From Clostridium polyendosporum (GTDB taxonomy: Bacteria; Bacillota; Clostridia; Clostridiales; Clostridiaceae), in the NCBI RefSeq assembly GCF_018332455.1, contig NZ_BOPZ01000012.1, forward strand, positions 31,443 to 95,442: a stretch of DNA of 64,000 nucleotides, given 5' to 3'. Below, piece by piece: positions 26,902-50,949 of the stretch. The notes under the pieces were generated by a model. It had not been told where the DNA came from. It was given only the letters and a program-made list of their open reading frames with translations, and did no database searches. Within the stretch, counting starts at the first letter, position 1. Every line of letters starts with the position of its first letter. A program made the position numbers and the translations under genes.

Positions 26902-27741
26902 GTGGGAAATTGTTCAACTTGCACAAGTAAGGATAAGTGTTCTAGTAAAGGTGAATCAAATATTTGTATAAAAATAATGCCTAAGTATGGTAATGTTAAA
27001 AATATCATAGGTGTTATAAGTGGCAAAGGCGGAGTAGGTAAATCTACTGTAACTGGGATAATGGCTACTCAATTAAGAAAAAAAGGATATAAGGTTGGAG
27101 TACTTGATGCTGATATAACAGGTCCTTCAATGCCAAGATTCTTTGGTATAAATAAAAAGAGAGCAGAGATGATGCCAATAGATGATAAAAACAACTTTAA
27201 ATTTGTTCCAGTAGAAACAGCTATGGGAATAAAAGTTATGTCCATGAATCTTTTAACAGCATCAGAGGATCAACCAGTTATATGGAGAGGACCTGTTATA
27301 ACAGGTGTATTAAATCAAATGTACACTGATACTGAATGGGGAGATTTAGATTATCTTCTTATTGATATGCCTCCGGGAACAGGAGACATAGCACTTACAG
27401 TTATGGAGAACTTTCCAATTTCAGAACTAGTTATAGTTTCAACACCGCAAGATATGGTTTCAATGATAGTTAAGAAGGTTGTAGTAATGGCTCAGAAGGT
27501 TGGAGTAGCTATTAAGGGTGTTGTTGAAAATATGGCATATATAGAATGCGACGGCTGTGAAAAGAAGCTGAAGGTGTTTTCTAAGAAATCTTCAGAGGAA
27601 CATGCAGAATATCTTGGTTTACCTTTGATCTGTGAAATGCCAATAAGTTTGGATTTAACAGAAGCTTTAGAAGAAGGTAGAGCAGAAAGTTTTGTAGCTG
27701 ATAGTCCACTATATGATTTATTATTTAGTGCATTATATTAA
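26902..27741 (+). CDS. Mrp/NBP35-family iron-sulfur cluster carrier ATPase (ApbC-like), GTG start
   Basis: It has a P-loop GKGGVGKST. An N-terminal Cys-rich segment (CSTCTSKDKCSS) and a CxxC are also present. Confidence 0.85.
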   Translation: MGNCSTCTSKDKCSSKGESNICIKIMPKYGNVKNIIGVISGKGGVGKSTVTGIMATQLRKKGYKVGVLDADITGPSMPRFFGINKKRAEMMPIDDKNNFKFVPVETAMGIKVMSMNLLTASEDQPVIWRGPVITGVLNQMYTDTEWGDLDYLLIDMPPGTGDIALTVMENFPISELVIVSTPQDMVSMIVKKVVVMAQKVGVAIKGVVENMAYIECDGCEKKLKVFSKKSSEEHAEYLGLPLICEMPISLDLTEALEEGRAESFVADSPLYDLLFSALY

Positions 27742-27758
27742 TATTAATTAGAGTGAAA

Positions 27759-27786
27759 GGAGTATAGGAAACTATGCTCCTTTTAT
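27759..27786 (+). terminator. Probable intrinsic terminator after the mrp-like gene
   Basis: A stem ggagtatag/ctatgctcc followed by TTTTAT. Confidence 0.55.
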
Positions 27787-27942
27787 AATAAGAATTAGTT
27801 AAGTGTTATTTGCATAGAATTAATACAGATAATAAGTACAGTATATAATCATTTTAAAATAAGAATTCTTATTTTTTACATAATTTATGGTTAAAAAGAA
27901 ATAATACTATTGTCGTTAATTCTATTTAAAGGAGTGAAATAT

Positions 27943-28131
27943 ATGAAAGCTCATGTTGATCAGGATACTTGTATAGGATGTGGTTTATGTCCATCTATTT
28001 GTCCAGAAGTTTTTCAAATGAATGATGATGGAAAAGCAGAAGAAATCGTAGATGAAGTACCAACTACTGCTGAGGATTCAGCAAAAGAAGCTGCAGATGG
28101 TTGTCCTGTTAATGCTATTTCAACATCATAA
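27943..28131 (+). CDS. Small 4Fe-4S ferredoxin
   Basis: It has [12 protein letters not shown] and a distal C…CP. An SD aaaggag lies 8 nt upstream of the ATG at 27943. Confidence 0.8.
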
Positions 28132-38038: not shown

Positions 38039-38079
38039 CGTATATATATAATGAAGCCTTGGAAAGAAAGGTGAGGGGA

Positions 38080-38754
38080 ATGAAGGAAAATTTAAAGATA
38101 AATGATAAAAACTTATTTATAGAAGATAATCTTGAGTTTATATATAAAACTACAAATACTATCTGTAAAAGAAAGTTGGATCATAGAAACGATGAAGAAA
38201 TAAGTGTTGCTCTTCAGGCATTCAATAAAGCTTGTGATACATTCAGTGAAAAAAAGGGGAATTTCTTTTCGTATTCTAGAGCAGTGATTAAAAATGCTCT
38301 TATTGATTTTTTTAGGAGTTCTAAAAAAGTTCCACTACTTTCTTTTGAAGAAGAAGAAAATTATGATTACATAGATAATACACTTTCAATTTCCCAATAT
38401 GAAAAAACTTTAGAAGGGCAAAATCGTGAGGAAGAAATAGGTCTTTTTAAGAAGGAACTTTCAGAGTATGGGATTGACTTTTTTCAGCTTGTGGAGGCAT
38501 CGCCTTCTCATAAAGATACAAGAGAGGAACTTCTTAATATAGCGATTTATTGCATAAGGGATCAGGAAGTATTAATTACATTAAAAAAAAATAAAAGGCT
38601 TCCAATAAGTAAAATAAGTAGCGGTACAAATAAGAGCAAAAAGCTTATTGAAAAGTGGAGAAAGTATCTAATTGCTCTTATTATAGTACTTTCAAATAAA
38701 GAGTATCTCTATTTAAAATCTTATTTAAGTATTAGGCAAAGAGGTGAGAAGTAA
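38080..38754 (+). CDS. sigI: RNA polymerase sigma factor SigI-like
   Basis: The region …DEEISVALQAFNKACDTFSEKKGNFFSYSRAVIKNALIDFFR… parallels B. subtilis SigI (…DDEFSIGLIAFNEAIDQYSPDKGSSLLSFAEVVIRRRVIDYIR…). The stop overlaps the rsgI start (TAATG). Confidence 0.7.
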   Translation: MKENLKINDKNLFIEDNLEFIYKTTNTICKRKLDHRNDEEISVALQAFNKACDTFSEKKGNFFSYSRAVIKNALIDFFRSSKKVPLLSFEEEENYDYIDNTLSISQYEKTLEGQNREEEIGLFKKELSEYGIDFFQLVEASPSHKDTREELLNIAIYCIRDQEVLITLKKNKRLPISKISSGTNKSKKLIEKWRKYLIALIIVLSNKEYLYLKSYLSIRQRGEK

Positions 38755-39689
38755 TGATCAGGAGAGGAATAGTAATGGAGGTTAAAGGGAAAAAGGTTCT
38801 TCTTATGACTTCGGCAGGAGAATTTACTATGGTTAAGGTAGGAAAAGAATTGCCAGTCAGGGGAAGAGAATATGAAGGAAAGGTTCTGGTGAAAAGTACT
38901 ATAAACAAGAGAATAATTGCAGCAGTAGCCTCTTTTGTACTTATTTTTACTTTGGGAGCAAAAGATTATTATACCCCAGTTAAGGCGTTAGAGATTTATG
39001 CAAGTTCTAATATAAAACTGGAACTTAATAGATGGGATAGAGTTATAGAAGCATCTCCTCTTAATGATAATGGTAGGAAGGTTCTTTCTAAAATAGCCTT
39101 AAATAACAGAGATATTGAGAAAGCTGTTAATATGATTTTAGAACAAGTTTCAAAGGAGAATATTTTAGGAGGTCAGCATCAGATATCTATTAATTCAATA
39201 AATGGAAAGTTAAATATTGACAACCTTAAAAAAATTATAGAAGAAAAAGGATTAAAGATCATTGATATCAACTCTTATAATGAAAATAATAAAATAAAAA
39301 GTCAACAGAGTGAAGTAATTAATGAGGAAAAGAGTAATAGTAAAAATAATGAAGAAAAAAATTTAAGTGAAAATAAATCGAATAAATCTATAGATAATAA
39401 AGGTAATAATGGACGGGAAGTTAATAATAGTAACAAGCATAGTATCTCACAAGACCAAGACACTAATAAGGATGTGAATTATAGTAAAAATAGCCAAGAT
39501 AATAAAATCAAGAGTTCTAGTTCATCTAGTAATGAAAAAGAAATAAAAGGTAATTCAAAACAACAATTAAAAGATACGGGAATAGAAAAGACTGATGGTA
39601 ATTATAAACATAATTTACAGGATACTCAAGGGAGCAATGAGCAATCAAATAGTTCTGAAAAAGAAAATAATACAATAAAGAAAAAGTAA
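38754..39689 (+). CDS. rsgI: Anti-sigma-I factor RsgI-like: RsgI N-terminal domain, single TM, then an Asn/Ser/Lys-rich low-complexity extracytoplasmic tail
   Basis: The N-terminus MIRRGIVMEVKGKKVLLMTSAGEFTMVKV matches the RsgI_N pattern (M.RGII.E…V.LLT.DGEF). A TM spans about aa 53-70. The C-terminal ~150 aa have no recognisable globular sensor domain. Confidence 0.65.
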   Translation: MIRRGIVMEVKGKKVLLMTSAGEFTMVKVGKELPVRGREYEGKVLVKSTINKRIIAAVASFVLIFTLGAKDYYTPVKALEIYASSNIKLELNRWDRVIEASPLNDNGRKVLSKIALNNRDIEKAVNMILEQVSKENILGGQHQISINSINGKLNIDNLKKIIEEKGLKIIDINSYNENNKIKSQQSEVINEEKSNSKNNEEKNLSENKSNKSIDNKGNNGREVNNSNKHSISQDQDTNKDVNYSKNSQDNKIKSSSSSSNEKEIKGNSKQQLKDTGIEKTDGNYKHNLQDTQGSNEQSNSSEKENNTIKKK

Positions 39690-41175: not shown

Positions 41176-41457
41176 AATATAACCTCACTTTCTTTTTATA
41201 TTATAGACATAAAATAACTTTAAATTACTATTAAATAACTTTATGGAAGTGTTTAATACATTAAAGCAAAAAATCCTTTCATCTTTATGAGACGAAAGGT
41301 GTGTACTTCGTATTATAATTCAATTGATACATTAGAAAATGTAATCTTTCAACTGGATTATTTTAGTGTTATTAGTAATATTATATAATTAATTTTTAAT
41401 AAATGCAATTAGTACATCATAAAATTATATAGTGTATTAAATAAATAAGAGGTATTT

Positions 41458-41901
41458 ATGTGTAAGTTAAAAGAGGAACTTTTAGCGGAAAAGTATTGCC
41501 AAATAAATTATTTAAAGGGGATGCTATGGATAAGTCACAAAAGTAAAAATTTTGACTATATACTTAGGATGTTGAAAAAGGTGCTTTTGCAAGTAGAAAT
41601 GATTAAAAATTTACCAGGTAACGATAAGGTTATTATTAAAAAAAGTGATGATGAAAGGGTGGAGTCAGATAGAAGGGAATTTACGTTAGAAGAACTTGCT
41701 AAATTCGATGGTAAAGGAGACAATCCTGCCTATGTAGCGATTAATGGTACAGTTTATGATGTAACAGATCAAAAAAGTTGGGGTGGAGGAACACATTTTG
41801 GTCTTTATGCTGGTAAGGATTTGTCTGATGCATATAATTCATGTCACACCAATAGTCCAGCGTTAAGCAAGCTTAAAGTAGTAGGAGTTTTAAAGCAATG
41901 A
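41458..41901 (+). CDS. Cytochrome b5-like heme/steroid-binding domain protein
   Basis: The C-terminal half (…FTLEELAKFDGKGDNPAYVAINGTVYDVTDQKSWGGGTHFGLYAGKDLSD…) matches the cyt-b5-like fold pattern. The N-terminal half and the start are uncertain. Confidence 0.5.
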   Translation: MCKLKEELLAEKYCQINYLKGMLWISHKSKNFDYILRMLKKVLLQVEMIKNLPGNDKVIIKKSDDERVESDRREFTLEELAKFDGKGDNPAYVAINGTVYDVTDQKSWGGGTHFGLYAGKDLSDAYNSCHTNSPALSKLKVVGVLKQ

Positions 41902-42677
41902 AGAAAATTAATGTGATATGGCTTGAGGCAGATGGATGTTCTGGGAATATAATTTCATTCTTAAATTCAGTAGAACCTTCAATAAGGTATCTTCTAGAAA
42001 ATGTAATAAACATAACCTATGATAATGCAGTAACGGGAGAAGAAGGAGAAGTAGCCTGGGAAAGATTTTTAAATACATTAAATACCGAGTTTATCTTAAT
42101 AGTAGAGGGTGCCATAAGTCTTAAGAGTGATGGATATTATAACGTTATAGCTAACTATAAGGGAGAGAGAATTACAGCTAACAAAGCCGTTGAATTAGCT
42201 GCACAGAAAGCAAAGTATATTATATCAGTAGGGGTTTGTGCTTGTTATGGCGGCGTATCTGCTGCTAGACCTAATCCAACACAATGTATTTCTGTTAAGG
42301 AATTTTTAGGAGAAAAGCAGGTGATACGGGTACCTGGATGTCCATGTAATCCAAGATGGCTCTCAGGAACAATTCTTCAGTTAGTTAATGGTAATAGGAT
42401 AATGCTTGATGAGGAAGGAAAACCTCTTATGTATTATGGAAGAACTATTCATGATAGATGTCCTAGAAGAGGTGATTTCGAGGAAAAGAGATTTGCTAAA
42501 GGCTTAGGTGAACCAGGGTGCCTTTTTAGATTAGGTTGTAGAGGGCCTGTTACAAGAGCAGATTGTCCAGTAGAGAAATGGAATGATCAAAAGAATTGGC
42601 CGATAGGAGTAAACACCAACTGTGTAGGCTGTACAAATAAGTACTTTCCAGATGGCATGGAGCCCTTTGAAAGATAG
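41898..42677 (+). CDS. [NiFe]-hydrogenase small subunit, no Tat signal peptide
   Basis: The N-terminal WLEADGCSGN motif and the Fe-S Cys clusters (GVCACYGG, GCPCNP, C…C…C near the C-terminus). There is no RRxFxK twin-arginine leader. Confidence 0.85.
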   Translation: MKKINVIWLEADGCSGNIISFLNSVEPSIRYLLENVINITYDNAVTGEEGEVAWERFLNTLNTEFILIVEGAISLKSDGYYNVIANYKGERITANKAVELAAQKAKYIISVGVCACYGGVSAARPNPTQCISVKEFLGEKQVIRVPGCPCNPRWLSGTILQLVNGNRIMLDEEGKPLMYYGRTIHDRCPRRGDFEEKRFAKGLGEPGCLFRLGCRGPVTRADCPVEKWNDQKNWPIGVNTNCVGCTNKYFPDGMEPFER

Positions 42678-42691
42678 GTAGGTGAAACTTA

Positions 42692-44113
42692 GTGAGTAAA
42701 AAAATAATTATTAATCCAATTACTAGAATAAGCGGATTGTTGAGCATAGAGGTTGAAATAGAAAATCATAAGATAATTGATGCAAGAAGTACGGGAAATA
42801 TGTTTCGTGGCTTTGAAATGATGTTGAAAGGAAGACCTCCTAAAGATGCAACTTATATAACTGAGAGAATATGCGGGATTTGTTCAACTGCTCATTCTTA
42901 TGTATCTACTTTAGCTGTAGAAAAGGCAATTCAGATTGAAGAAAGTGAGAATTCAAAAGCCATTAGAGATTTGGTGCATGGGTGTGATTTGATACAAAGT
43001 CATACTAGGCATTTTTATCTTTTTGTTTTGCCTGATTATATTAGTGGAGATTGGGGCATGCCGAGCTTTAGGGAAACTCTTGCAGATAGTAGGATACCCA
43101 AAGCCATAGCTGATAAAATATTCTCTCATTATGTTGAGTCACTAGAAATTTCAAGAAAAGCTCATGACCTTTTAGCTATGCTAAGTGGTAAGGCTCCTCA
43201 TAATCATGGAATCTTTCCAGGCGGAGTTACTCTAGTACTTACTGAACCCAAGAGAGTAGTATTTAAAGAAATACTTCAGGATATTCTAAATTTTGCTAGA
43301 GAAAAAATGTATGAGGACACATTTATGATTAGTAAATACTATGATGATTACTATGATAAGGGATATACAGGCGAAAACTTTTTAACCTTTGGAATGATAA
43401 ATGGGTATAGCAATAAGGAGTTAAATTATGTTGATCCTGCTGTAATGCTTGATGGTAAAATTGAGCCTATAGATTTTTCGATGATATATGAAAATATAAA
43501 AAGTTCTTGGTTTAGAGCAATAGACCCGGGACAGAATCAGGATGTTATGAACCTAAGTGATACAGCATGGATTGATGATATTAATAAACAAGGAGGATAC
43601 AGTTTTATAAAGGCTTCAAGATATAGAGAGCAGCCAATGGAAGTAGGGCCCTTGGCTAGGATGAAGCTTGGTGGATATTATCAAGGAAAGTCTTCTGTTA
43701 TTGGTAGAATAGTAGCTAGAACAAATGAAGTTATACAGGTTTGCGAGCTAATGATGAAACTTATTGACAGAGTAAAGATTAATGAAAAGAGTTTTATAAG
43801 TAAGGATGTTCCAGAAAAAGGGGAAGGTATTGCATTTAAAGACACTATGAGAGGTGCACTTTGTCACTATGTTTCAATAAGAAATAGTGTTATCGATAAA
43901 TATAATATAATAACTCCTTCTACATGGAATCTAGGTCCATCAATACCTGGTGGAGAAAAGGGCATTGTAGAAAGAGCACTTATTAATACTCATATAGAAA
44001 ATGAAGATCATCCTATAGAGATAGGACGGGTAGTTAGAAGTTTTGATCCGTGTATTTCTTGTGCTACTCACGTATTTAAATATAAAGAAAAGATTATGGA
44101 GGTTATATTTTAA
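42692..44113 (+). CDS. [NiFe]-hydrogenase large subunit
   Basis: The L1 motif RICGICSTAHS and the C-terminal L2 motif DPCISCATH. A GTG start lies after aggtaggtga. Confidence 0.9.
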   Translation: MSKKIIINPITRISGLLSIEVEIENHKIIDARSTGNMFRGFEMMLKGRPPKDATYITERICGICSTAHSYVSTLAVEKAIQIEESENSKAIRDLVHGCDLIQSHTRHFYLFVLPDYISGDWGMPSFRETLADSRIPKAIADKIFSHYVESLEISRKAHDLLAMLSGKAPHNHGIFPGGVTLVLTEPKRVVFKEILQDILNFAREKMYEDTFMISKYYDDYYDKGYTGENFLTFGMINGYSNKELNYVDPAVMLDGKIEPIDFSMIYENIKSSWFRAIDPGQNQDVMNLSDTAWIDDINKQGGYSFIKASRYREQPMEVGPLARMKLGGYYQGKSSVIGRIVARTNEVIQVCELMMKLIDRVKINEKSFISKDVPEKGEGIAFKDTMRGALCHYVSIRNSVIDKYNIITPSTWNLGPSIPGGEKGIVERALINTHIENEDHPIEIGRVVRSFDPCISCATHVFKYKEKIMEVIF

Positions 44114-44166
44114 AAAGAGCTACTTATCTCTATTGGCCTTGTACAAATATTAATAAGGAGAGAAAT

Positions 44167-44619
44167 ATGAGCAAGATTATAGCTATAGGAAATACTCTGA
44201 TGAGAGATGATGGCGTGGCAATTAAAGCTTTAAGAATTATAGAAGAACCATTAAAAAAATTAGGCTTTGAAGTTATCTTTGGAGGAGTATCTATAGAACC
44301 TGCATTTTTAATAGATAAAGATGAAGATGTTATAGTTGTTGATGCAATGAATATAGGAGTAAGTGGTGGTGAAGTACATGCTTTTCCTCTTGAAAATTTC
44401 AAGGGTATAAGCTTTATTTGTGCATCTGAACATGACATTGATCTCTTATCAATGATGAGGATTTTGAAACACTCTATGAAAGGAATATTTATAGGAATAG
44501 AAATCAAAGAAATATCTTTTCATGATGAATTAAGCATTGAAATAAACAAAAAACTTCATTTTATAAGTAAAAGAATATATGAAGTATGTAAAAATTATGA
44601 GGAAGGTAAAAAAATATAG
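44167..44619 (+). CDS. Hydrogenase maturation endopeptidase (HyaD/HybD/HycI family)
   Basis: The protein is 150 aa. The N-terminal GNTLMRDDGVAIKA motif matches the family. Confidence 0.8.
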   Translation: MSKIIAIGNTLMRDDGVAIKALRIIEEPLKKLGFEVIFGGVSIEPAFLIDKDEDVIVVDAMNIGVSGGEVHAFPLENFKGISFICASEHDIDLLSMMRILKHSMKGIFIGIEIKEISFHDELSIEINKKLHFISKRIYEVCKNYEEGKKI

Positions 44620-44622
44620 AAA

Positions 44623-44646
44623 AGTAGCATTATATGCTACTTTTCT
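44623..44646. terminator. Bidirectional terminator (agtagcata…tatgctact)
   Basis: A palindromic hairpin with flanking A and T runs, between convergent genes. Confidence 0.7.
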
Positions 44647-45343
44647 ACTCGGTTCCTGTTTCATAAGAGTGAACTAGAGGTGTTGGAAAACCTTTCATTT
44701 CAGCATCTTTTACTGTTCTCTTATATTCATAATTTATCTCTTTGATTTGTGTTTTTATGTTTGGATCTTTAGTTATTTCTAATATAACATAGGTGGCATT
44801 TGGTCTTCCTATCTTAGGTTTGCCAACGCTACCATCATTGATTAAAAGCTTGTGTCCAAATCGCTTAACATAAGGGATATGAGTATGAGCACATACTAGT
44901 ACATCACTATCTAGATTTTTCATTATTGTTTCAATCTCTTTATTATCTTCTGATAAATATTCATTTATTTTTTGAGGACTTCCATGCACAAAAAGGACTT
45001 TTTTTCCTTCTATTGTTAAGGAAAGATTTTCAGGAAGATTTTCTAGAAAATATTTATTAGAAACTCTAAGTTCTTCAACTGTCCATGGAAGAGAGAAGGA
45101 ATTAATATTTGTATCTCTTATATAAGTAAAACCGTTGTCCACTACAGAGGCATCATAATTGCCTTTTAGACAAATAATATTTCTTCTTTTTATCATAGCT
45201 ACAACTTCATTTGGATGTGGGCCATAACCAACGAGATCACCAAGACAGATAATGGTGTCAACATTCTGACTATCTATATCTTCAAGCACTCTTATAAGTG
45301 CATAGACGTTGCTGTGAATATCAGATATTACTGCTATTTTCAT
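44645..45343 (-). CDS. Metallophosphoesterase (calcineurin-like, YfcE-type)
   Basis: It reads MKIAVISDIHSN…, …GDLVGYG… and …GHTHIP…, the classical phosphoesterase motifs. Confidence 0.8.
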   Translation of the reverse strand: MKIAVISDIHSNVYALIRVLEDIDSQNVDTIICLGDLVGYGPHPNEVVAMIKRRNIICLKGNYDASVVDNGFTYIRDTNINSFSLPWTVEELRVSNKYFLENLPENLSLTIEGKKVLFVHGSPQKINEYLSEDNKEIETIMKNLDSDVLVCAHTHIPYVKRFGHKLLINDGSVGKPKIGRPNATYVILEITKDPNIKTQIKEINYEYKRTVKDAEMKGFPTPLVHSYETGTE

Positions 45344-48968: not shown

Positions 48969-50276
48969 CTATACTTTACCGGAAAATGTGAGAAATAGAA
49001 GAAATATATTTAATGAAATAATTACAATAGTTATTATCCATCCAATAACTTTGGTTAGTAATTTGTTAACAAATATACCCATAATATCTTTCTTGCTTGT
49101 TATTATCATCATAGGAATAATGGCAAAGGGGAGAGCGAAGCTTAAAAAAACTTGACTTATAACTAATGCCTTCATAGGATTTATACCTACTCCTATGATT
49201 ATCATGGCAGGAGCCATTGTTATTATACGTTTGATATTAGTAGGTATTTTAATATTTATAAAACCGTCCATAACTGTTTCTCCAGCCATAGCACCTACAG
49301 CTGAAGATGAGAATCCAGATGCAAGTAAGGCTATAGCGAAGATACTACTAGATAATGAACCTAGTAAAGGTGAAAGAGATTGGTGTGCTTGTTCAATTGA
49401 ATCTACTGTTATACCTTTGCTAAAGAAAACTGTTGCAGATACAATAACCATGGATGCATTTACAATAAATGCAATATTCATTGCTAAGGTAATATCTATT
49501 CTTTCCATACGTAAATGTGAAATCTTATCTGCTAAAGTCATTCCTTTATTTCTAGATTGAACTAATTGAGAATGAAGATAAATTACATGAGGCATAACAG
49601 TGGCGCCTAACATACCTACAGCTATTAGAACAGCCTCACTGTTAGGGATGGATGGAACTAATGTGTGATAACCTACCTGTACCCAATCGGGTTTTGCTAA
49701 AAATATTTCCGTGGTGTAGCAAATACAAATAATAGCAACAAATACAGTGATAATTATTTCGACAATACGCTGACCATATTTTTGCATATATATAATAAAG
49801 AATGTAACTACACCAGTAAGAAGTCCTGCATAAATTAAAGGTATTCCAAATAACAAATAAAACCCAAGGGTGCCACCTAAAAATTCAGCTATAGTAGTAG
49901 CTATAGCTGCTAATTCAGCAACAACCCATAAAAGCCAATTGATCTTCTTTGAAAAAACTCTACTACATACCTCAGATAGATTAGCATCAGTAGCTATTCC
50001 TAATTTAGCTGACATAGTTTGTAAGAAGATAGCCATCAAGTTACTCCATAGAATTACCCATATCAGATTATAGTTAAATATTGAACCACTACTAATATTG
50101 GTTGCAAAGTTACCTGGATCAACATATGCTACACTTACTACAAATGCAGGTCCTAGAAATTTGAACAATTGGCCTATGGATTTTCGTTTCGAAATCAATC
50201 TATGACTTTCTAGTTCTACAATGTTTGAATTAGTAGAACTTACATAGACTTTTTTAAGGTTTTTATTAATTTGCAT
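48969..50276 (-). CDS. mntH: NRAMP-family divalent metal (Mn2+/Fe2+) transporter
   Basis: NRAMP consensus blocks (…GPAFVVSVAYVDPGNFATNI…, …MPHVIYLHS…). Confidence 0.9.
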   Translation of the reverse strand: MQINKNLKKVYVSSTNSNIVELESHRLISKRKSIGQLFKFLGPAFVVSVAYVDPGNFATNISSGSIFNYNLIWVILWSNLMAIFLQTMSAKLGIATDANLSEVCSRVFSKKINWLLWVVAELAAIATTIAEFLGGTLGFYLLFGIPLIYAGLLTGVVTFFIIYMQKYGQRIVEIIITVFVAIICICYTTEIFLAKPDWVQVGYHTLVPSIPNSEAVLIAVGMLGATVMPHVIYLHSQLVQSRNKGMTLADKISHLRMERIDITLAMNIAFIVNASMVIVSATVFFSKGITVDSIEQAHQSLSPLLGSLSSSIFAIALLASGFSSSAVGAMAGETVMDGFINIKIPTNIKRIITMAPAMIIIGVGINPMKALVISQVFLSFALPFAIIPMMIITSKKDIMGIFVNKLLTKVIGWIITIVIISLNIFLLFLTFSGKV

Positions 50277-50331
50277 CTCAATGTACCTTCCTTAAGATTT
50301 TCTAGACTTAAGTAATTTATAAGTAACTAAT

Positions 50332-50354
50332 AAATTTAGCCATGACTAAAATTT
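50332..50354. promoter_or_regulatory. Imperfect palindrome AAATTTAGCCATGACTAAAATTT in the mntH/mntR divergent region, a candidate DtxR/MntR-family operator
   Basis: The inverted repeat was read directly from the sequence. A second site CCTTAAG/CTTAAG motif lies at 50293-50322, next to the mntH RBS. Confidence 0.35.
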
Positions 50355-50466
50355 TTTCTCTTATATAAAATATGAATATTTCAAAATAAATGTTACAAAA
50401 AGGTTATTATTCTCAAATATTTAGCATATTATTTAGTAGTAACTATAATTTAATTTAGGTGATAAC

Positions 50467-50949
50467 ATGAATAACGAAGATTTTTTTACATTTAGGGAAT
50501 ATATGAAAAAGGAAGGTAGTCATCTAACTGCATCAATGGAGGATTATCTTGAAATGATATATAGATTATCAAAGGAAACAGGCTTTACAAGAATACATGA
50601 TTTATCAACTTCACTTAATGTTCAACCATCATCGGCAACGAAGATGATGCAAAGACTTGCAGAGTTAAAGCTTATAAGCTATGAAAAACATGGATTTATA
50701 GCATTAACTCAGGAAGGAAAAGTAATTGGAAAAGCACTTCTTGATAGGCATAATGTAATAGAAATGTTTTTAAGGTTATTGGGAATATCAGAAAGTATAT
50801 TAGAAGAAACAGAAAAAATAGAGCATACAATAAGTAATGAAACACTTAAATGCTTCGTAGGTTTCATTGAGTTTTTAAAAAGCAATCCAGATATTAATGA
50901 AAAATTTGAAGACTATAGAACCTTAAAGAAAAAAGATATAGATAGCTAA
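50467..50949 (+). CDS. mntR: DtxR/MntR-family metal-dependent transcriptional regulator
   Basis: An N-terminal HTH (…TASMEDYLEMIYRLSKETGFTRIHDLSTSLNVQPSSATKMMQRLAE…). It is divergent from mntH. Confidence 0.8.
   Translation: MNNEDFFTFREYMKKEGSHLTASMEDYLEMIYRLSKETGFTRIHDLSTSLNVQPSSATKMMQRLAELKLISYEKHGFIALTQEGKVIGKALLDRHNVIEMFLRLLGISESILEETEKIEHTISNETLKCFVGFIEFLKSNPDINEKFEDYRTLKKKDIDS

What the first reader, a model, noticed from the sequence alone, without database searches (positions are those of the whole stretch)
41458..44619. Compact cytoplasmic-type [NiFe]-hydrogenase cluster led by a cytochrome b5-like domain gene
The cluster is small subunit (259 aa), then large subunit (473 aa; L1 RICGICSTAHS, L2 DPCISCATH), then a maturation endopeptidase.

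The small subunit has no twin-arginine signal peptide and is short. This rules out a periplasmic group-1 uptake enzyme and points to a cytoplasmic group (2 or 3-like), or to an unclassified lineage. No diaphorase, FrhB/MvhD, HoxFU or membrane cytochrome b partner gene is present.

Instead, the gene immediately upstream (41458-41901) ends with a cytochrome b5-like heme-binding domain, and its stop overlaps the small-subunit start (41898-41901). It is therefore a candidate for an unusual electron-transfer partner. No hypA–F maturation genes lie in the window. The apparent stop-start coupling across all four genes suggests a single operon.
Basis: partly seen in the sequence, partly recalled or inferred. 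Interest (0 to 1): 0.55.

Follow-up and report, generated by a model that had tools for sequence, protein, structure and literature searches.

The report
Clostridial cytoplasmic [NiFe]-hydrogenase with cytochrome-b5M partner
This is a real four-gene operon for the Tat-less [NiFe] uptake hydrogenase already known to be common in Clostridium, and its leading gene encodes a small heme protein (cytochrome b5M type) that sits next to this hydrogenase in about 80% of related genomes and is probably its electron acceptor, though nobody has tested that.

Summary
Window 41458-44619 (+) encodes a b5-like protein (147 aa), a [NiFe] small subunit (259 aa), a large subunit (473 aa) and a maturation protease (150 aa). 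They lie between a conserved promoter-like block and a terminator hairpin. Only the first gene junction is a true ATGA overlap.

The enzyme has no Tat signal and no membrane segment, so it is probably cytoplasmic. By sequence it is not group 2/3 or unclassified. It belongs to the known clostridial group-1 family, which HydDB calls 1a, and it carries the published RICGICSTAH/DPCxSCATH signature. Published analyses already found this family to lack Tat signals.

The b5 gene is a conserved companion. It is linked in 67 of 81 b5-anchored loci (80 species genomes plus pSOL1) and in 57 of 71 hydrogenase-anchored metagenome loci. Apart from hyp genes, no other gene travels with the operon. The protein is a helical hairpin, a flexible linker and a cytb5M domain, whose two invariant histidines match the heme ligands of crystal structures 6NZX/6VZ6.

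Best model: a soluble H2-uptake enzyme that hands electrons to a tethered heme b. This is unproven, and the downstream acceptor is unknown.

It is a new member of a known but biochemically uncharacterised kind.

The parts
41396..41425 (+). Promoter-like site (TTAATA, 18 nt, TAAAAT) about 33 nt upstream of the b5 start codon
   Evidence: Consensus scan. It lies inside the only well-conserved intergenic block shared by five short-form-clade loci (alignment A3). Function is inferred, not shown.
41458..41901 (+). Gene for the 147-aa cytb5M-type protein: N-terminal helical hairpin (residues 3-50), flexible linker (51-72), b5M heme domain (73-147)
   Evidence: ORF. PF00173 E=9e-12. AF2 model with mean pLDDT 86, helices 3-25 and 32-50, disordered 61-66. 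Foldseek to 6NZX: TM 0.88, rmsd 1.6 A, 48% identity. Profile against PDB: 6nzx E=1e-23. dN/dS 0.28.
41794..41847 (+). Segment bounded by the codons of His113 (41794-41796) and His130 (41845-41847), the predicted axial heme ligands
   Evidence: Both are invariant in 28 of 28 homologs. They align with H42 and H61 of 6NZX/6VZ6, which are the bis-His heme ligands in the crystal structures (bioRxiv 10.1101/2021.11.30.470528). Codons checked.
41898..42677 (+). [NiFe]-hydrogenase small subunit, 259 aa, no Tat signal, no C-terminal anchor. Proximal-cluster positions C14/N17/C114/C148, medial C223/P235/C242/C245, distal H185/C188/C208/C214
   Evidence: Alignment to the mature D. baculatum chain from residue 6. 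Ligand columns across 68 family members. Codons. dN/dS 0.155.
42692..44113 (+). [NiFe]-hydrogenase large subunit, 473 aa, GTG start. L1 at 42866-42898, L2 at 44045-44071, cleavable 13-aa C-terminal extension at 44072-44110
   Evidence: Best PDB matches are group 1a [NiFeSe] large subunits at 299 bits. dN/dS 0.135.
44167..44619 (+). Hydrogenase maturation endopeptidase, 150 aa (HybD/HycI family), with GNxxxxDD, DA (59-60) and His89 motifs present
   Evidence: TIGR00072 E=2e-21, PF01750 E=7e-7. Motifs read. dN/dS 0.23.
44616..44648 (.). 15-bp palindromic hairpin between the protease gene and the convergent metallophosphoesterase gene; probable bidirectional terminator closing the operon
   Evidence: Terminator scan, reported on the minus strand. 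The sequence read shows the same stem on the plus strand, with T-rich 3' stem and tail bases. Function is inferred.

Best explanation
The locus is one operon (b5M-hupS-hupL-protease) of Clostridium polyendosporum. It encodes a soluble, cytoplasmic, H2-oxidising [NiFe]-hydrogenase of the clostridial group-1(a) family.

Proposed mechanism:
1. The large subunit is loaded with NiFe(CO)(CN)2 by HypA-F, which must be encoded elsewhere in the genome. The operon's own endopeptidase then cuts it after His460.
2. H2 is split at the Ni-Fe site.
3. Electrons run through the small subunit: a proximal cluster held by Cys14/Cys114/Cys148 with Asn17 in the fourth position, then a medial [3Fe-4S]-type site, then a distal [4Fe-4S] with His185.
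4. The first gene product takes the electrons from the distal cluster. It is anchored to the enzyme by its N-terminal helical hairpin. Its bis-His heme-b (cytb5M) domain swings on a flexible linker of about 20 residues.
5. The heme domain passes single electrons to a soluble cytoplasmic acceptor that is not encoded in the operon and remains unknown.

In effect, cytb5M would be the cytoplasmic, b-type stand-in for the periplasmic cytochrome c3 or membrane cytochrome b used by Tat-exported group-1 enzymes.

Shown here: gene identities, lack of export signals, conservation of ligands, the b5M fold, conserved synteny and purifying selection.

Inferred: heme loading, physical docking, direction of catalysis and the electron path beyond the distal cluster.
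For: Identity of the four genes.

No export or anchoring:
- No RR motif or TM segment in any product.
- The S frame is closed eight codons upstream of its start.
- S ends where the soluble D. baculatum chain ends.
- Relatives were also found to lack Tat signals (PMC9431212).

b5M is a real heme-type domain:
- Foldseek to 6NZX: TM 0.88, rmsd 1.6 A.
- Profile E=1e-23.
- H113 and H130 are invariant and equal the crystallographic bis-His ligands H42/H61.

The functional link is conserved:
- Of 81 b5-anchored loci (80 species genomes plus pSOL1), 53 are b5-S-L, 12 S-L-P-b5 and 2 divergent.
- Of 71 assessable S-anchored metagenome loci, 57 carry b5.
- All four S-anchored look-ups had b5.
- The only other genes that co-travel are hypA-F.
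- In this clade, b5 and S overlap by 4 nt in every member seen, down to 65% S identity.

Tethered architecture:
- Confident hairpin plus a low-pLDDT linker.
- Linker length varies widely and is low-complexity in homologs P0073 and P0120.

The distal His ligand is retained in 68 of 68 members.

All four genes are under purifying selection.

The uptake role is supported only by literature on clostridial [NiFe] clusters:
- Antisense knock-down of hupCBA in C. saccharoperbutylacetonicum raises H2 output. I could not verify that this cluster belongs to the family.
- Presence of the cluster correlates with no gas distension in C. estertheticum.
- The C. pasteurianum enzyme rises 8.7-fold under N2 fixation.

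Asn at proximal-cluster position 2 is compatible with activity. It is natural in Nostoc HupS, and the C81N variant of the A. macleodii enzyme is active (PMC4070099).
Against: - No experiment links cytb5M to any hydrogenase. Heme binding is shown only for two archaeal homologs expressed in E. coli.
- Many clostridia are thought to lack a complete heme pathway. PMC9431212 found only partial candidates in acetogens.
- About 20% of family loci have no b5 gene nearby, so it is not obligatory in cis.
- In 12 b5-anchored loci (11 species genomes and pSOL1) the b5 gene sits after the protease and next to hyp genes. Its C. acetobutylicum depositors called it 'HypQ3', which would fit an accessory role.
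- Hydrogenase-unlinked paralogs exist.
- No natural b5-S fusion was found.
- The homologous enzymes are barely expressed in standard cultures.
- The acceptor downstream of the heme is unknown.
- hyp genes were not seen for this genome, and I could not look beyond the window.
Confidence: 0.5

Rival explanations
1. The hydrogenase is as described (cytoplasmic, clostridial group 1a), but the b5M protein is not in the main electron path. It would be an accessory factor: an assembly or stability chaperone for the small subunit, or a heme-based redox or gas sensor (O2/CO/NO) that protects or gates the enzyme. The physiological acceptor would be a general carrier such as ferredoxin, flavodoxin or rubredoxin.
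For: - In 12 b5-anchored loci (11 species genomes and pSOL1) the gene lies between the protease and hyp genes, and it was deposited as 'HypQ3'.
- 14 of 71 hydrogenase loci lack it nearby and have no substitute partner.
- The N-terminal half evolves faster: dN/dS 0.35 against 0.14 for the b5 domain.
- Heme supply in clostridia is doubtful.
- A near-invariant Cys129 sits next to the His130 ligand, which could serve redox sensing.
Against: - Both crystallographic heme ligands are invariant. The fold is that of an electron-carrier domain.
- The commonest position is first in the operon, tightly packed against or overlapping the structural gene S. That suggests stoichiometric co-production.
- A variable tether with a mobile domain is typical of redox shuttles.
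- No other acceptor gene co-travels.
Confidence: 0.27
2. The enzyme is still exported or surface-associated like other group-1 enzymes, by an unrecognised signal or by hitch-hiking. The b5M protein would act outside the cytoplasm.
For: - Sequence affiliation is with periplasmic group 1a/1b enzymes.
- PMC9431212 leaves atypical Tat or Sec export open.
- Most relatives carry a conserved N-terminal extension of about 32 aa at the position of the Tat peptide.
Against: - In this window the small subunit starts directly at the mature core, with a stop eight codons upstream.
- None of the four products has an RR motif or a hydrophobic stretch.
- The extension in relatives is hydrophilic and lacks RR.
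- Three further members of this clade also lack the extension.
Confidence: 0.04
3. One reading: a group 2- or 3-like enzyme, or a wholly unclassified [NiFe] lineage.
For: - Tat-less, short small subunit and no standard partner.
- The proximal-cluster Cys-to-Asn at position 2 is otherwise known from cyanobacterial group 2a HupS (PMC4070099).
- The window's large subunit is the most divergent member of its family: median 45.5% identity against a family median of 55.4%.
Against: - PDB ranking for the large subunit: 1a 299 bits, 1b about 245, 1c about 210, 1d about 190, 2a 155, 3c 100, 3a 94.
- NCBIfam best hits are the NiFeSe/HydA group-1 models. FrhA, VhuA and sulfhydrogenase models score far lower.
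- The distal His is retained, unlike the Gln of Nostoc HupS.
- A C-terminal extension and a protease are present.
- The motifs equal the published clostridial group-1 signature.
- Relatives are HydDB group 1a.
Confidence: 0.04
4. The cluster is a silent or decaying relic. With no hyp genes at hand and a truncated small subunit, it would make no active enzyme.
For: - No hyp genes in 64 kb.
- The small subunit lacks the N-terminal extension found in 58 of 68 relatives.
- Homologs are unexpressed or weakly expressed in the laboratory.
- One related locus (L022) is visibly decayed.
Against: - dN/dS of 0.13-0.28 for all four genes, equal to that of the neighbours.
- The same architecture, with intact frames, is kept in at least four further members of the clade down to 65% S identity.
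- All metal ligands and the protease motifs are intact.
- A conserved promoter block is present.
- Other family members also keep hyp genes elsewhere (L010, L016, L033).
Confidence: 0.05

Closest known systems
Clostridium acetobutylicum pSOL1 [NiFe]-hydrogenase cluster (CA_P0141/0142 'HupSL/MbhSL', protease, 'HypQ3' cytochrome-b5-domain protein); the clostridial group-1 family of Calusinska et al. 2010, HydDB group 1a reference WP_010890826.1
   Same: - Same four protein families.
- S 57%, L 44.5% and b5 domain 54% identical.
- GCSGN proximal motif, RICGICSTAH and DPCxSCATH motifs.
- No Tat signal.
- C-terminal extension of 13-15 aa.
   Different: - Gene order here is b5-S-L-P with a 4-nt b5/S overlap. 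pSOL1 has S-L-P-b5 followed by hyp-like genes.
- The window's S lacks the N-terminal extension of about 33 aa with the Cys-Pro motif.
- No hyp genes are adjacent.
- The window's L is the most divergent family member.
Periplasmic group 1a/1b [NiFeSe]/[NiFe] hydrogenases of Desulfomicrobium/Desulfovibrio (PDB 1CC1, 4KL8, 5JSU, 1FRV) with soluble cytochrome c3 as acceptor
   Same: - Best structural and sequence relatives of both subunits.
- A soluble heterodimer without a C-terminal membrane helix.
- A His-ligated distal cluster.
- A soluble one-electron heme protein as proposed acceptor (works-like, inferred).
   Different: - No Tat signal, so cytoplasmic.
- Cys, not Sec, in L2.
- Medial site has Pro (3Fe type), unlike the 4-Cys site of D. 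baculatum.
- Proximal position 2 is Asn.
- The partner is a b-type cytb5M instead of a c-type tetraheme cytochrome.
Archaeal cytb5M proteins (Hadesarchaea KUO41884.1, PDB 6NZX; Methanococcoides burtonii WP_011499504.1, PDB 6VZ6), the MAPR-like prokaryotic cytochrome b5 class
   Same: - Fold: TM 0.88 and 0.83.
- 48% and 41% identity.
- Both axial His conserved.
- No MIHIR insertion and no classical loop 2.
   Different: - The archaeal proteins are stand-alone 78-aa domains of unknown function.
- This protein adds a 50-aa helical hairpin and a linker and is operon-linked to a hydrogenase.
- The cytb5M papers never mention this context: zero occurrences of 'hydrogenase', 'Clostridi' or 'Firmicutes'.
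Cyanobacterial uptake hydrogenase HupSL (group 2a)
   Same: - Tat-less cytoplasmic uptake enzyme (Tat-lessness of HupSL is from my own knowledge, not tested here).
- Proximal-cluster position 2 is Cys-to-Asn (PMC4070099 Table 1).
   Different: - Much lower sequence similarity. The only solved 2a enzyme, Huc, scores 155 bits (L) and 100 bits (S) against 299 and 187 for group 1a.
- Nostoc HupS has Gln at the distal His position, whereas here His185 is invariant.
- No b5 partner is known for HupSL.
Enzymes with a tethered, mobile cytochrome b5 domain (flavocytochrome b2, sulfite oxidase, Ncb5or)
   Same: A b5-fold heme domain on a flexible linker that shuttles electrons from a catalytic module. 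These appear among the fold hits (1FCB, 1SOX, 3LF5). The resemblance is in how it works only.
   Different: - Those are single polypeptides with a classical (clade-2) b5 domain.
- Here the heme domain is a separate gene product of the cytb5M clade.
- Docking through the hairpin is inferred.

Membership tests
Group 1 [NiFe]-hydrogenase (HydDB 1a as applied to clostridia) | Large subunit with L1 RxCGxCxxxH and L2 DPCxxCxxH Ni-Fe ligand motifs, and best sequence similarity to group-1 enzymes | tested here: met
   RICGICSTAHS at 59-69 and DPCISCATH at 452-460. PDB ranking: 1a 299 bits, 1b about 245, 1c about 210, 1d about 190, 2a 155, group 3 about 100 or less. NF033181 at 439 bits is the top NCBIfam hit but below its 600 cutoff.
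Group 1 [NiFe]-hydrogenase (HydDB 1a as applied to clostridia) | Formal HydDB / phylogenetic placement | not testable with these tools
   HydDB was not available. Relatives, including pSOL1 WP_010890826.1 (44.5% identical), are HydDB group 1a according to PMC9431212.
Group 1 [NiFe]-hydrogenase (HydDB 1a as applied to clostridia) | Twin-arginine signal peptide on the small subunit (periplasmic location) | tested here: not met
   S starts at the mature core and aligns from residue 6 of mature 1CC1/4KL8. A stop lies eight codons upstream. No RR motif. The same holds for 68 relatives and in the literature.
Group 1 [NiFe]-hydrogenase (HydDB 1a as applied to clostridia) | Three Fe-S clusters in the small subunit with the standard 4Cys / 3Cys(+Pro) / His+3Cys ligand pattern | tested here: inconclusive
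   The distal set (H185, C188, C208, C214) and the medial set (C223, P235, C242, C245) are standard and invariant. The proximal site has only three invariant Cys (C14, C114, C148), with Asn17 at position 2. Asn at this position occurs naturally in Nostoc HupS and is tolerated experimentally. The cluster type cannot be decided in silico.
Group 1 [NiFe]-hydrogenase (HydDB 1a as applied to clostridia) | Cytochrome partner (c3, or membrane cytochrome b) or another membrane module | tested here: not met
   No such gene is in the window or conserved in 80 related loci. A cytb5M gene occupies the partner position instead.
Group 1 [NiFe]-hydrogenase (HydDB 1a as applied to clostridia) | C-terminal extension of the large subunit plus a dedicated endopeptidase | tested here: met
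   13 residues follow His460, and 13-15 in 64 of 65 relatives. The protease gene matches TIGR00072 at E=2e-21 with intact motifs.
Clostridial Tat-less [NiFe]-hydrogenase with adjacent b5 gene (pSOL1 type) | Signature motifs RICGICSTAH / DPCxSCATH and GC[SAE]G[ND] in the small subunit | tested here: met
   The signature is quoted in PMC6362236.
Clostridial Tat-less [NiFe]-hydrogenase with adjacent b5 gene (pSOL1 type) | Cyt-b5-domain gene in the same operon | tested here: met
   b5 at 41458-41901 overlaps S. Linkage: 67 of 81 b5-anchored loci, i.e. 80 species genomes plus pSOL1, and 57 of 71 S-anchored loci.
Clostridial Tat-less [NiFe]-hydrogenase with adjacent b5 gene (pSOL1 type) | Hydrophilic N-terminal extension of about 32 aa on the small subunit with a conserved Cys-Pro motif (58 of 68 members) | tested here: not met
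   Absent here and in P0121, P0122, P0123 and P0125. This is a clade-specific loss, so the window is a variant within the family.
Clostridial Tat-less [NiFe]-hydrogenase with adjacent b5 gene (pSOL1 type) | hypA-F maturation genes adjacent | tested here: not met
   None in the window. They are adjacent in 43-46 of about 66 related loci, and unlinked in others such as L010, L016 and L033.
cytb5M (prokaryotic MAPR-like cytochrome b5) | b5 fold closest to 6NZX/6VZ6, without the MAPR MIHIR insertion or classical loop 2 | tested here: met
   Foldseek: 6NZX E=3e-8, TM 0.88, rmsd 1.6 A; 6VZ6 TM 0.83. Classical b5 and PGRMC1 score TM 0.53-0.70. Profile E=1e-23 against about 1e-2 for classical b5.
cytb5M (prokaryotic MAPR-like cytochrome b5) | Two axial histidines equivalent to H42 and H61 | tested here: met
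   H113 and H130 are invariant in 28 of 28.
cytb5M (prokaryotic MAPR-like cytochrome b5) | Binds heme b non-covalently | not testable with these tools
   Shown only for the two archaeal proteins. The heme supply in this organism is unknown.
   Huc 155 bits, Mvh 100, Frh 94, against 299 for group 1a. FrhA, VhuA and ShyA models score 115-149 bits against cutoffs of 392-800. No partner genes are present. Only the proximal Cys-to-Asn is shared with cyanobacterial 2a.

The most novel reading that the evidence does not exclude
The clostridial 'group 1a' enzymes are really a distinct cytoplasmic hydrogenase class. Its third subunit would be a tethered cytochrome b5M: H2, then NiFe, then a 3-Cys/Asn proximal cluster, then [3Fe-4S], then the His-ligated [4Fe-4S], then a bis-His heme b on a swinging arm.

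That would give the first physiological function for prokaryotic cytb5M proteins, the proposed ancestors of eukaryotic MAPR/PGRMC1. It would also show a heme-dependent, higher-potential H2-uptake route in bacteria usually regarded as cytochrome-free.

The short-form clade in this window has no N-terminal extension and translationally coupled b5/S. It would be the minimal version and the best one to reconstitute.
Probability: 0.4. Interest if true: 0.62.

Novelty: new member of a known kind. Interest (0 to 1): 0.4.

Why it matters
Clostridial [NiFe]-hydrogenases occur in most Clostridium genomes, including solvent producers, acetogens, C. botulinum and meat spoilers. They influence H2 yield, yet none has been purified, and neither their location nor their electron acceptor is known.

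This survey shows that a cytb5M gene is their regular companion, at about 80% of loci, and the only one besides hyp genes. The protein keeps the crystallographic heme ligands and has a tethered-domain architecture.

That turns two open questions into direct experiments:
- What does this hydrogenase reduce?
- What are prokaryotic cytb5M proteins for?

The four-gene, extension-less version in this window is a compact construct for such work.

For the window itself, the result is mostly reassurance. It is an ordinary member of a known family, not a new hydrogenase group.

Tried and rejected
- **Compensating cysteine.** I tested whether the window's extra Cys116, Cys130 or Cys150 replace the missing N-terminal-extension Cys, or Cys at proximal position 2. 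No clean covariation appeared across 68 sequences. The other short-form members lack Cys116. Rejected.
- **Natural b5-small-subunit fusions.** I looked among the longer b5 homologs and found none.
- **T-box or other Rfam element in the 41176-41457 intergenic region.** No hit. The footprint shows the T-box core present in L083-L085 is deleted here.
- **Walking beyond the window.** I tried to look for hyp or heme genes beyond the window edges with five look-ups. None of these products, including the 100%-identical P0001, is on record in that index.
- **Primary papers.** Calusinska et al. 2010 and Nakayama et al. 2008 are not held. What I cite from them is second-hand, and I could not verify that 'hupC' is the b5 gene.
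- **Small redox carriers near the operon.** A motif scan found only one ferredoxin-like ORF, 13 kb away.
- **AlphaFold on a b5-S construct.** Not attempted. The tool returns no coordinates or contacts, so an interface could not have been evaluated.
- **HydDB or a reference phylogeny.** Could not be run. Classification rests on PDB and NCBIfam score ranking and on published HydDB calls for relatives.
- **Chance adjacency of the b5 ORF, or a wrong start.** Rejected by synteny, by a confident model of residues 3-50 and by conservation in L082.

Full report
**1. What is in the sequence**

| Gene | Length | Best family matches |
|---|---|---|
| b5-like protein | 147 aa | PF00173, residues 76-143, E=9e-12 |
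| Small subunit (S) | 259 aa | PF01058 + PF14720; TIGR00391 at 212 bits, above its cutoff |
| Large subunit (L) | 473 aa | PF00374, E=5e-95 |
| Protease (P) | 150 aa | TIGR00072, E=2e-21 |

L2 is followed by 13 residues that the endopeptidase would remove.

The b5 stop overlaps the S start as ATGA. The other two junctions are gaps of 14 and 53 nt, each with a Shine-Dalgarno sequence. So the 'coupling across all four genes' is overstated. Even so, no plus-strand terminator lies inside the cluster. A promoter-like site (41396-41425) precedes it, and a 15-bp hairpin (44616-44648) follows it. The promoter-like site falls in the only conserved intergenic block shared with four related loci.

The organism is Clostridium polyendosporum. 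The b5 protein is 100% identical to CPJCM30710_17160.

**2. The genes are alive**

A sister species from a sequencing-run assembly (L082) has the same four genes, the same lengths, the same ATGA overlap and the same flanking genes.

| Gene | dN/dS, window vs L082 |
|---|---|
| b5 | 0.28 |
| S | 0.155 |
| L | 0.135 |
| P | 0.23 |
| Two flanking housekeeping genes | 0.11 and 0.16 |

Three further loci from two more distant relatives (S 69% and 65% identical) again show the same arrangement in the same chromosomal position: asnS(-), b5, a 4-nt overlap, S, L, P, metallophosphoesterase(-).

**3. Which hydrogenase**

Both subunits are most similar to periplasmic group 1a [NiFeSe] enzymes.

| Group (solved structures) | Large-subunit score, bits |
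|---|---|
| 1a | 299 |
| 1b | about 245 |
| 1c | about 210 |
| 1d | about 190 |
| 2a (Huc) | 155 |
| 3c | 100 |
| 3a | 94 |

S aligns to the mature D. baculatum chain from its residue 6 to its end. This means S has neither a Tat signal peptide nor a C-terminal membrane helix. The S reading frame is closed eight codons upstream of its ATG. None of the four products has an RR motif or a hydrophobic stretch.

This combination is not new:
- PMC9431212 reports that HydDB classes the [NiFe] enzymes of eight Clostridium acetogens as group 1a, and that no Tat signal was found in any of them.
- PMC6362236 quotes RICGICSTAH and DPCxSCATH as the signature of clostridial [NiFe]-hydrogenases.

The inference of a cytoplasmic enzyme stands. 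HydDB itself could not be run.

**4. Fe-S ligands**

Across 68 family small subunits:
- The distal set (His185, Cys188, Cys208, Cys214) is invariant.
- The medial set (Cys223, Cys242, Cys245, with Pro235 in the fourth position) is invariant.
- The proximal site has only three invariant cysteines (14, 114, 148). Position 2 of the usual CxxC is Asn, or Asp in two sequences.

I tested whether other cysteines compensate. They do not do so consistently.

The pattern has precedent. Cys-to-Asn at proximal position 2 is listed as a natural variant in Nostoc punctiforme HupS, and the equivalent C81N substitution leaves an Alteromonas enzyme active (PMC4070099). Unlike Nostoc HupS, this family keeps the distal histidine.

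**5. The upstream protein**

An alignment of 28 homologs shows two invariant histidines, H113 and H130.

A profile of that alignment hits two solved 78-residue archaeal proteins far better than classical b5 or PGRMC1. The scores are E=1e-23 for 6NZX and 5e-19 for 6VZ6, against 3e-5 for PGRMC1 and about 1e-2 for classical b5.

An AlphaFold model (mean pLDDT 86) has three parts:
- a confident two-helix hairpin (residues 3-25 and 32-50);
- a low-confidence linker;
- a b5 domain (residues 73-147).

The b5 domain superposes on 6NZX with TM 0.88 and rmsd 1.6 A at 48% identity.

6NZX and 6VZ6 define the 'cytb5M' class, the MAPR-like prokaryotic cytochrome b5. Both bind heme b through H42 and H61. In the profile alignment these are exactly H113 and H130.

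The cytb5M papers give no function for these proteins. They never mention hydrogenases or Firmicutes.

**6. Is the link to the hydrogenase real?**

*Starting from b5.* A scan of one genome per species found 362 genomes with a relative. The best 80 loci plus pSOL1 were sorted as follows.

| Arrangement | Loci |
|---|---|
| b5-S-L | 53 |
| S-L-(P)-b5 | 12 |
| Divergent | 2 |
| No hydrogenase next to b5 | 14 |

Of those 14, two sit at a contig end and two on short contigs.

*Starting from the small subunit.* A metagenome scan gave 80 loci.

| Arrangement | Loci |
|---|---|
| b5-S-L | 45 |
| S-L-(P)-b5 | 11 |
| b5 elsewhere in the flank | 1 |
| No b5 despite room | 14 |
| Too truncated to judge | 9 |

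That makes 57 of 71 assessable loci linked.

Clustering all neighbouring ORFs showed that the only other genes that travel with the operon are hypA, B, C, D, E, F and an 86-aa HypA-like gene. No ferredoxin, flavoprotein, diaphorase or membrane protein travels with it. The b5-less loci have no Tat signal and no substitute partner.

The C. ljungdahlii-group locus carries a PF00173 gene after the protease. PMC9431212 reported a b5 gene in only three other acetogens.

Hydrogenase-unlinked b5M paralogs with other appendages exist. This suggests the hairpin is the hydrogenase-specific adaptor.

**7. Mechanism**

The best-supported model is a soluble cytoplasmic uptake hydrogenase whose distal cluster reduces the heme of a hairpin-anchored, linker-tethered cytb5M domain. 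It would be a b-type, cytoplasm-compatible counterpart of cytochrome c3.

Support for the tether comes from the disordered linker. Its length also varies widely, and it is low-complexity in homologs.

The uptake direction rests on literature for clostridial [NiFe] clusters:
- antisense knock-down of the C. saccharoperbutylacetonicum cluster raises H2 output (family membership of that cluster not verified);
- presence of the cluster correlates with less gas in C. estertheticum;
- expression peaks in stationary phase in C. beijerinckii;
- expression is induced under N2 fixation in C. pasteurianum.

Weak points:
- Heme loading is untested, and heme synthesis in clostridia is doubtful.
- One fifth of loci lack b5.
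- In the S-L-P-b5 order the gene sits among maturation genes, and it was once named HypQ3.
- The homologs are poorly expressed in the laboratory.
- The final acceptor is unknown.

I give this model 0.5 and the accessory or sensor alternative 0.27.

**8. How this copy differs from its family**

- **Missing extension.** The small subunit lacks the hydrophilic N-terminal extension of about 32 aa with a Cys-Pro motif, which 58 of 68 relatives carry. The loss is shared by a small clade at this same locus.
- **No hyp genes nearby.** None within 64 kb. They are adjacent in about two thirds of relatives.
- **Divergent large subunit.** It is the most divergent in the sample: median 45.5% identity against a family median of 55.4%.

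These make it a variant within the family, not a new kind.

**9. Verdict**

This is a new member of a known, widespread, biochemically uncharacterised family.

The part worth pursuing is the systematic hydrogenase-cytb5M link. It is only touched on in the literature, and it is directly testable.

Noticed in passing
L002-L081 small-subunit genes (e.g. L004:10392-11264, L001:8108-8983); absent at window 41898: 58 of 68 family small subunits carry a hydrophilic, non-Tat N-terminal extension of about 32 aa with a conserved Cys-Pro...SK..TA pattern, at the position where periplasmic enzymes have the Tat peptide. Cys-Pro is also the core of heme-regulatory motifs. Its role is unknown: a fourth proximal ligand, a chaperone handle or a heme contact are all possible. 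The window's clade has lost it.
   Followed up: partly
window 41176-41457, minus strand (hairpin 41299-41275): The asnS leader keeps a terminator-like hairpin with a T-run but has no Rfam T-box hit. In related loci L083-L085 the same intergenic region is about 170 nt longer and contains the T-box core (reverse complement of CGCGGTACCACC). That core is deleted in the window and in L082.
   Followed up: partly
L086/L087:11743-12156 (C. ljungdahlii-group genomes GCA_001675165.1, GCA_019056555.1): A PF00173 Cyt-b5 gene follows the hydrogenase protease gene. [quoted passage not shown]
   Followed up: partly
L056:9944-10516, L071:9938-10495, L066, L028; proteins P0091, P0105, P0111, P0118, P0119: A second cytb5M subfamily (about 185-190 aa, starting MSIYFD.KTI.EL) has the b5M domain at the N-terminus and a conserved C-terminal helical extension. 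It occurs in C. botulinum, C. beijerinckii and relatives and is not next to a hydrogenase.
   Followed up: no
Cluster c8 in 34 loci, e.g. L043:10374-10634, L074:10425-10685, L001:11290-11550: A conserved 86-aa protein resembles the N-terminal half of HypA without the zinc-finger cysteines. It sits between the protease or b5 gene and hypF in many family operons.
   Followed up: no
L022:9915-13015 (Lutispora sp. MAG): A decayed version of the operon. A 101-aa b5 gene is followed by only a fragment of the large subunit (35% identity over residues 198-347), then intact hypD and hypE.
   Followed up: no
window 41396-41440 and alignment A3: The conserved upstream block contains TGCAAT and CATAAAAT elements within and around the predicted sigma-70-like promoter. 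CATA-type -10 elements recall sporulation sigma factors, and the C. beijerinckii homolog peaks in stationary phase (PMC6362236). No regulator was assigned.
   Followed up: no
window 42692-44113: The large subunit of this clade is a long branch: median 45.5% identity to 64 family members, which share a median of 55.4% among themselves. The small subunit is not unusually divergent (55.8% against 61.0%).
   Followed up: partly
window 26902-28131: An Mrp/NUBPL-type Fe-S carrier ATPase (26902-27741) is followed by a 73-aa ORF with a ferredoxin-like CxxCxxCxxxCP motif (27910-28131). This is the only small Fe-S protein candidate in the window, 13 kb from the hydrogenase.
   Followed up: no
window 38059-39689: A SigI-like sigma factor and RsgI-like anti-sigma pair lies two genes upstream of the operon. 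It is syntenic in L083 (PF04542 weak; PF12791 RsgI_N).
   Followed up: no
window 48969-50949: An Nramp metal transporter (minus strand) lies divergent from a DtxR/MntR-family metal-dependent repressor, a typical Mn/Fe homeostasis pair.
   Followed up: no
L141, L143, L145, L146, L157, L162, L164 (metagenome loci) and L069: A psychrophile-like subclade has the order hypA-hypB-S-L-(about 221-aa gene)-P with no b5 gene in the same orientation nearby. L069 (C. frigoris) has b5 divergently placed about 1.4 kb upstream. The 221-aa gene between L and P was not identified.
   Followed up: no
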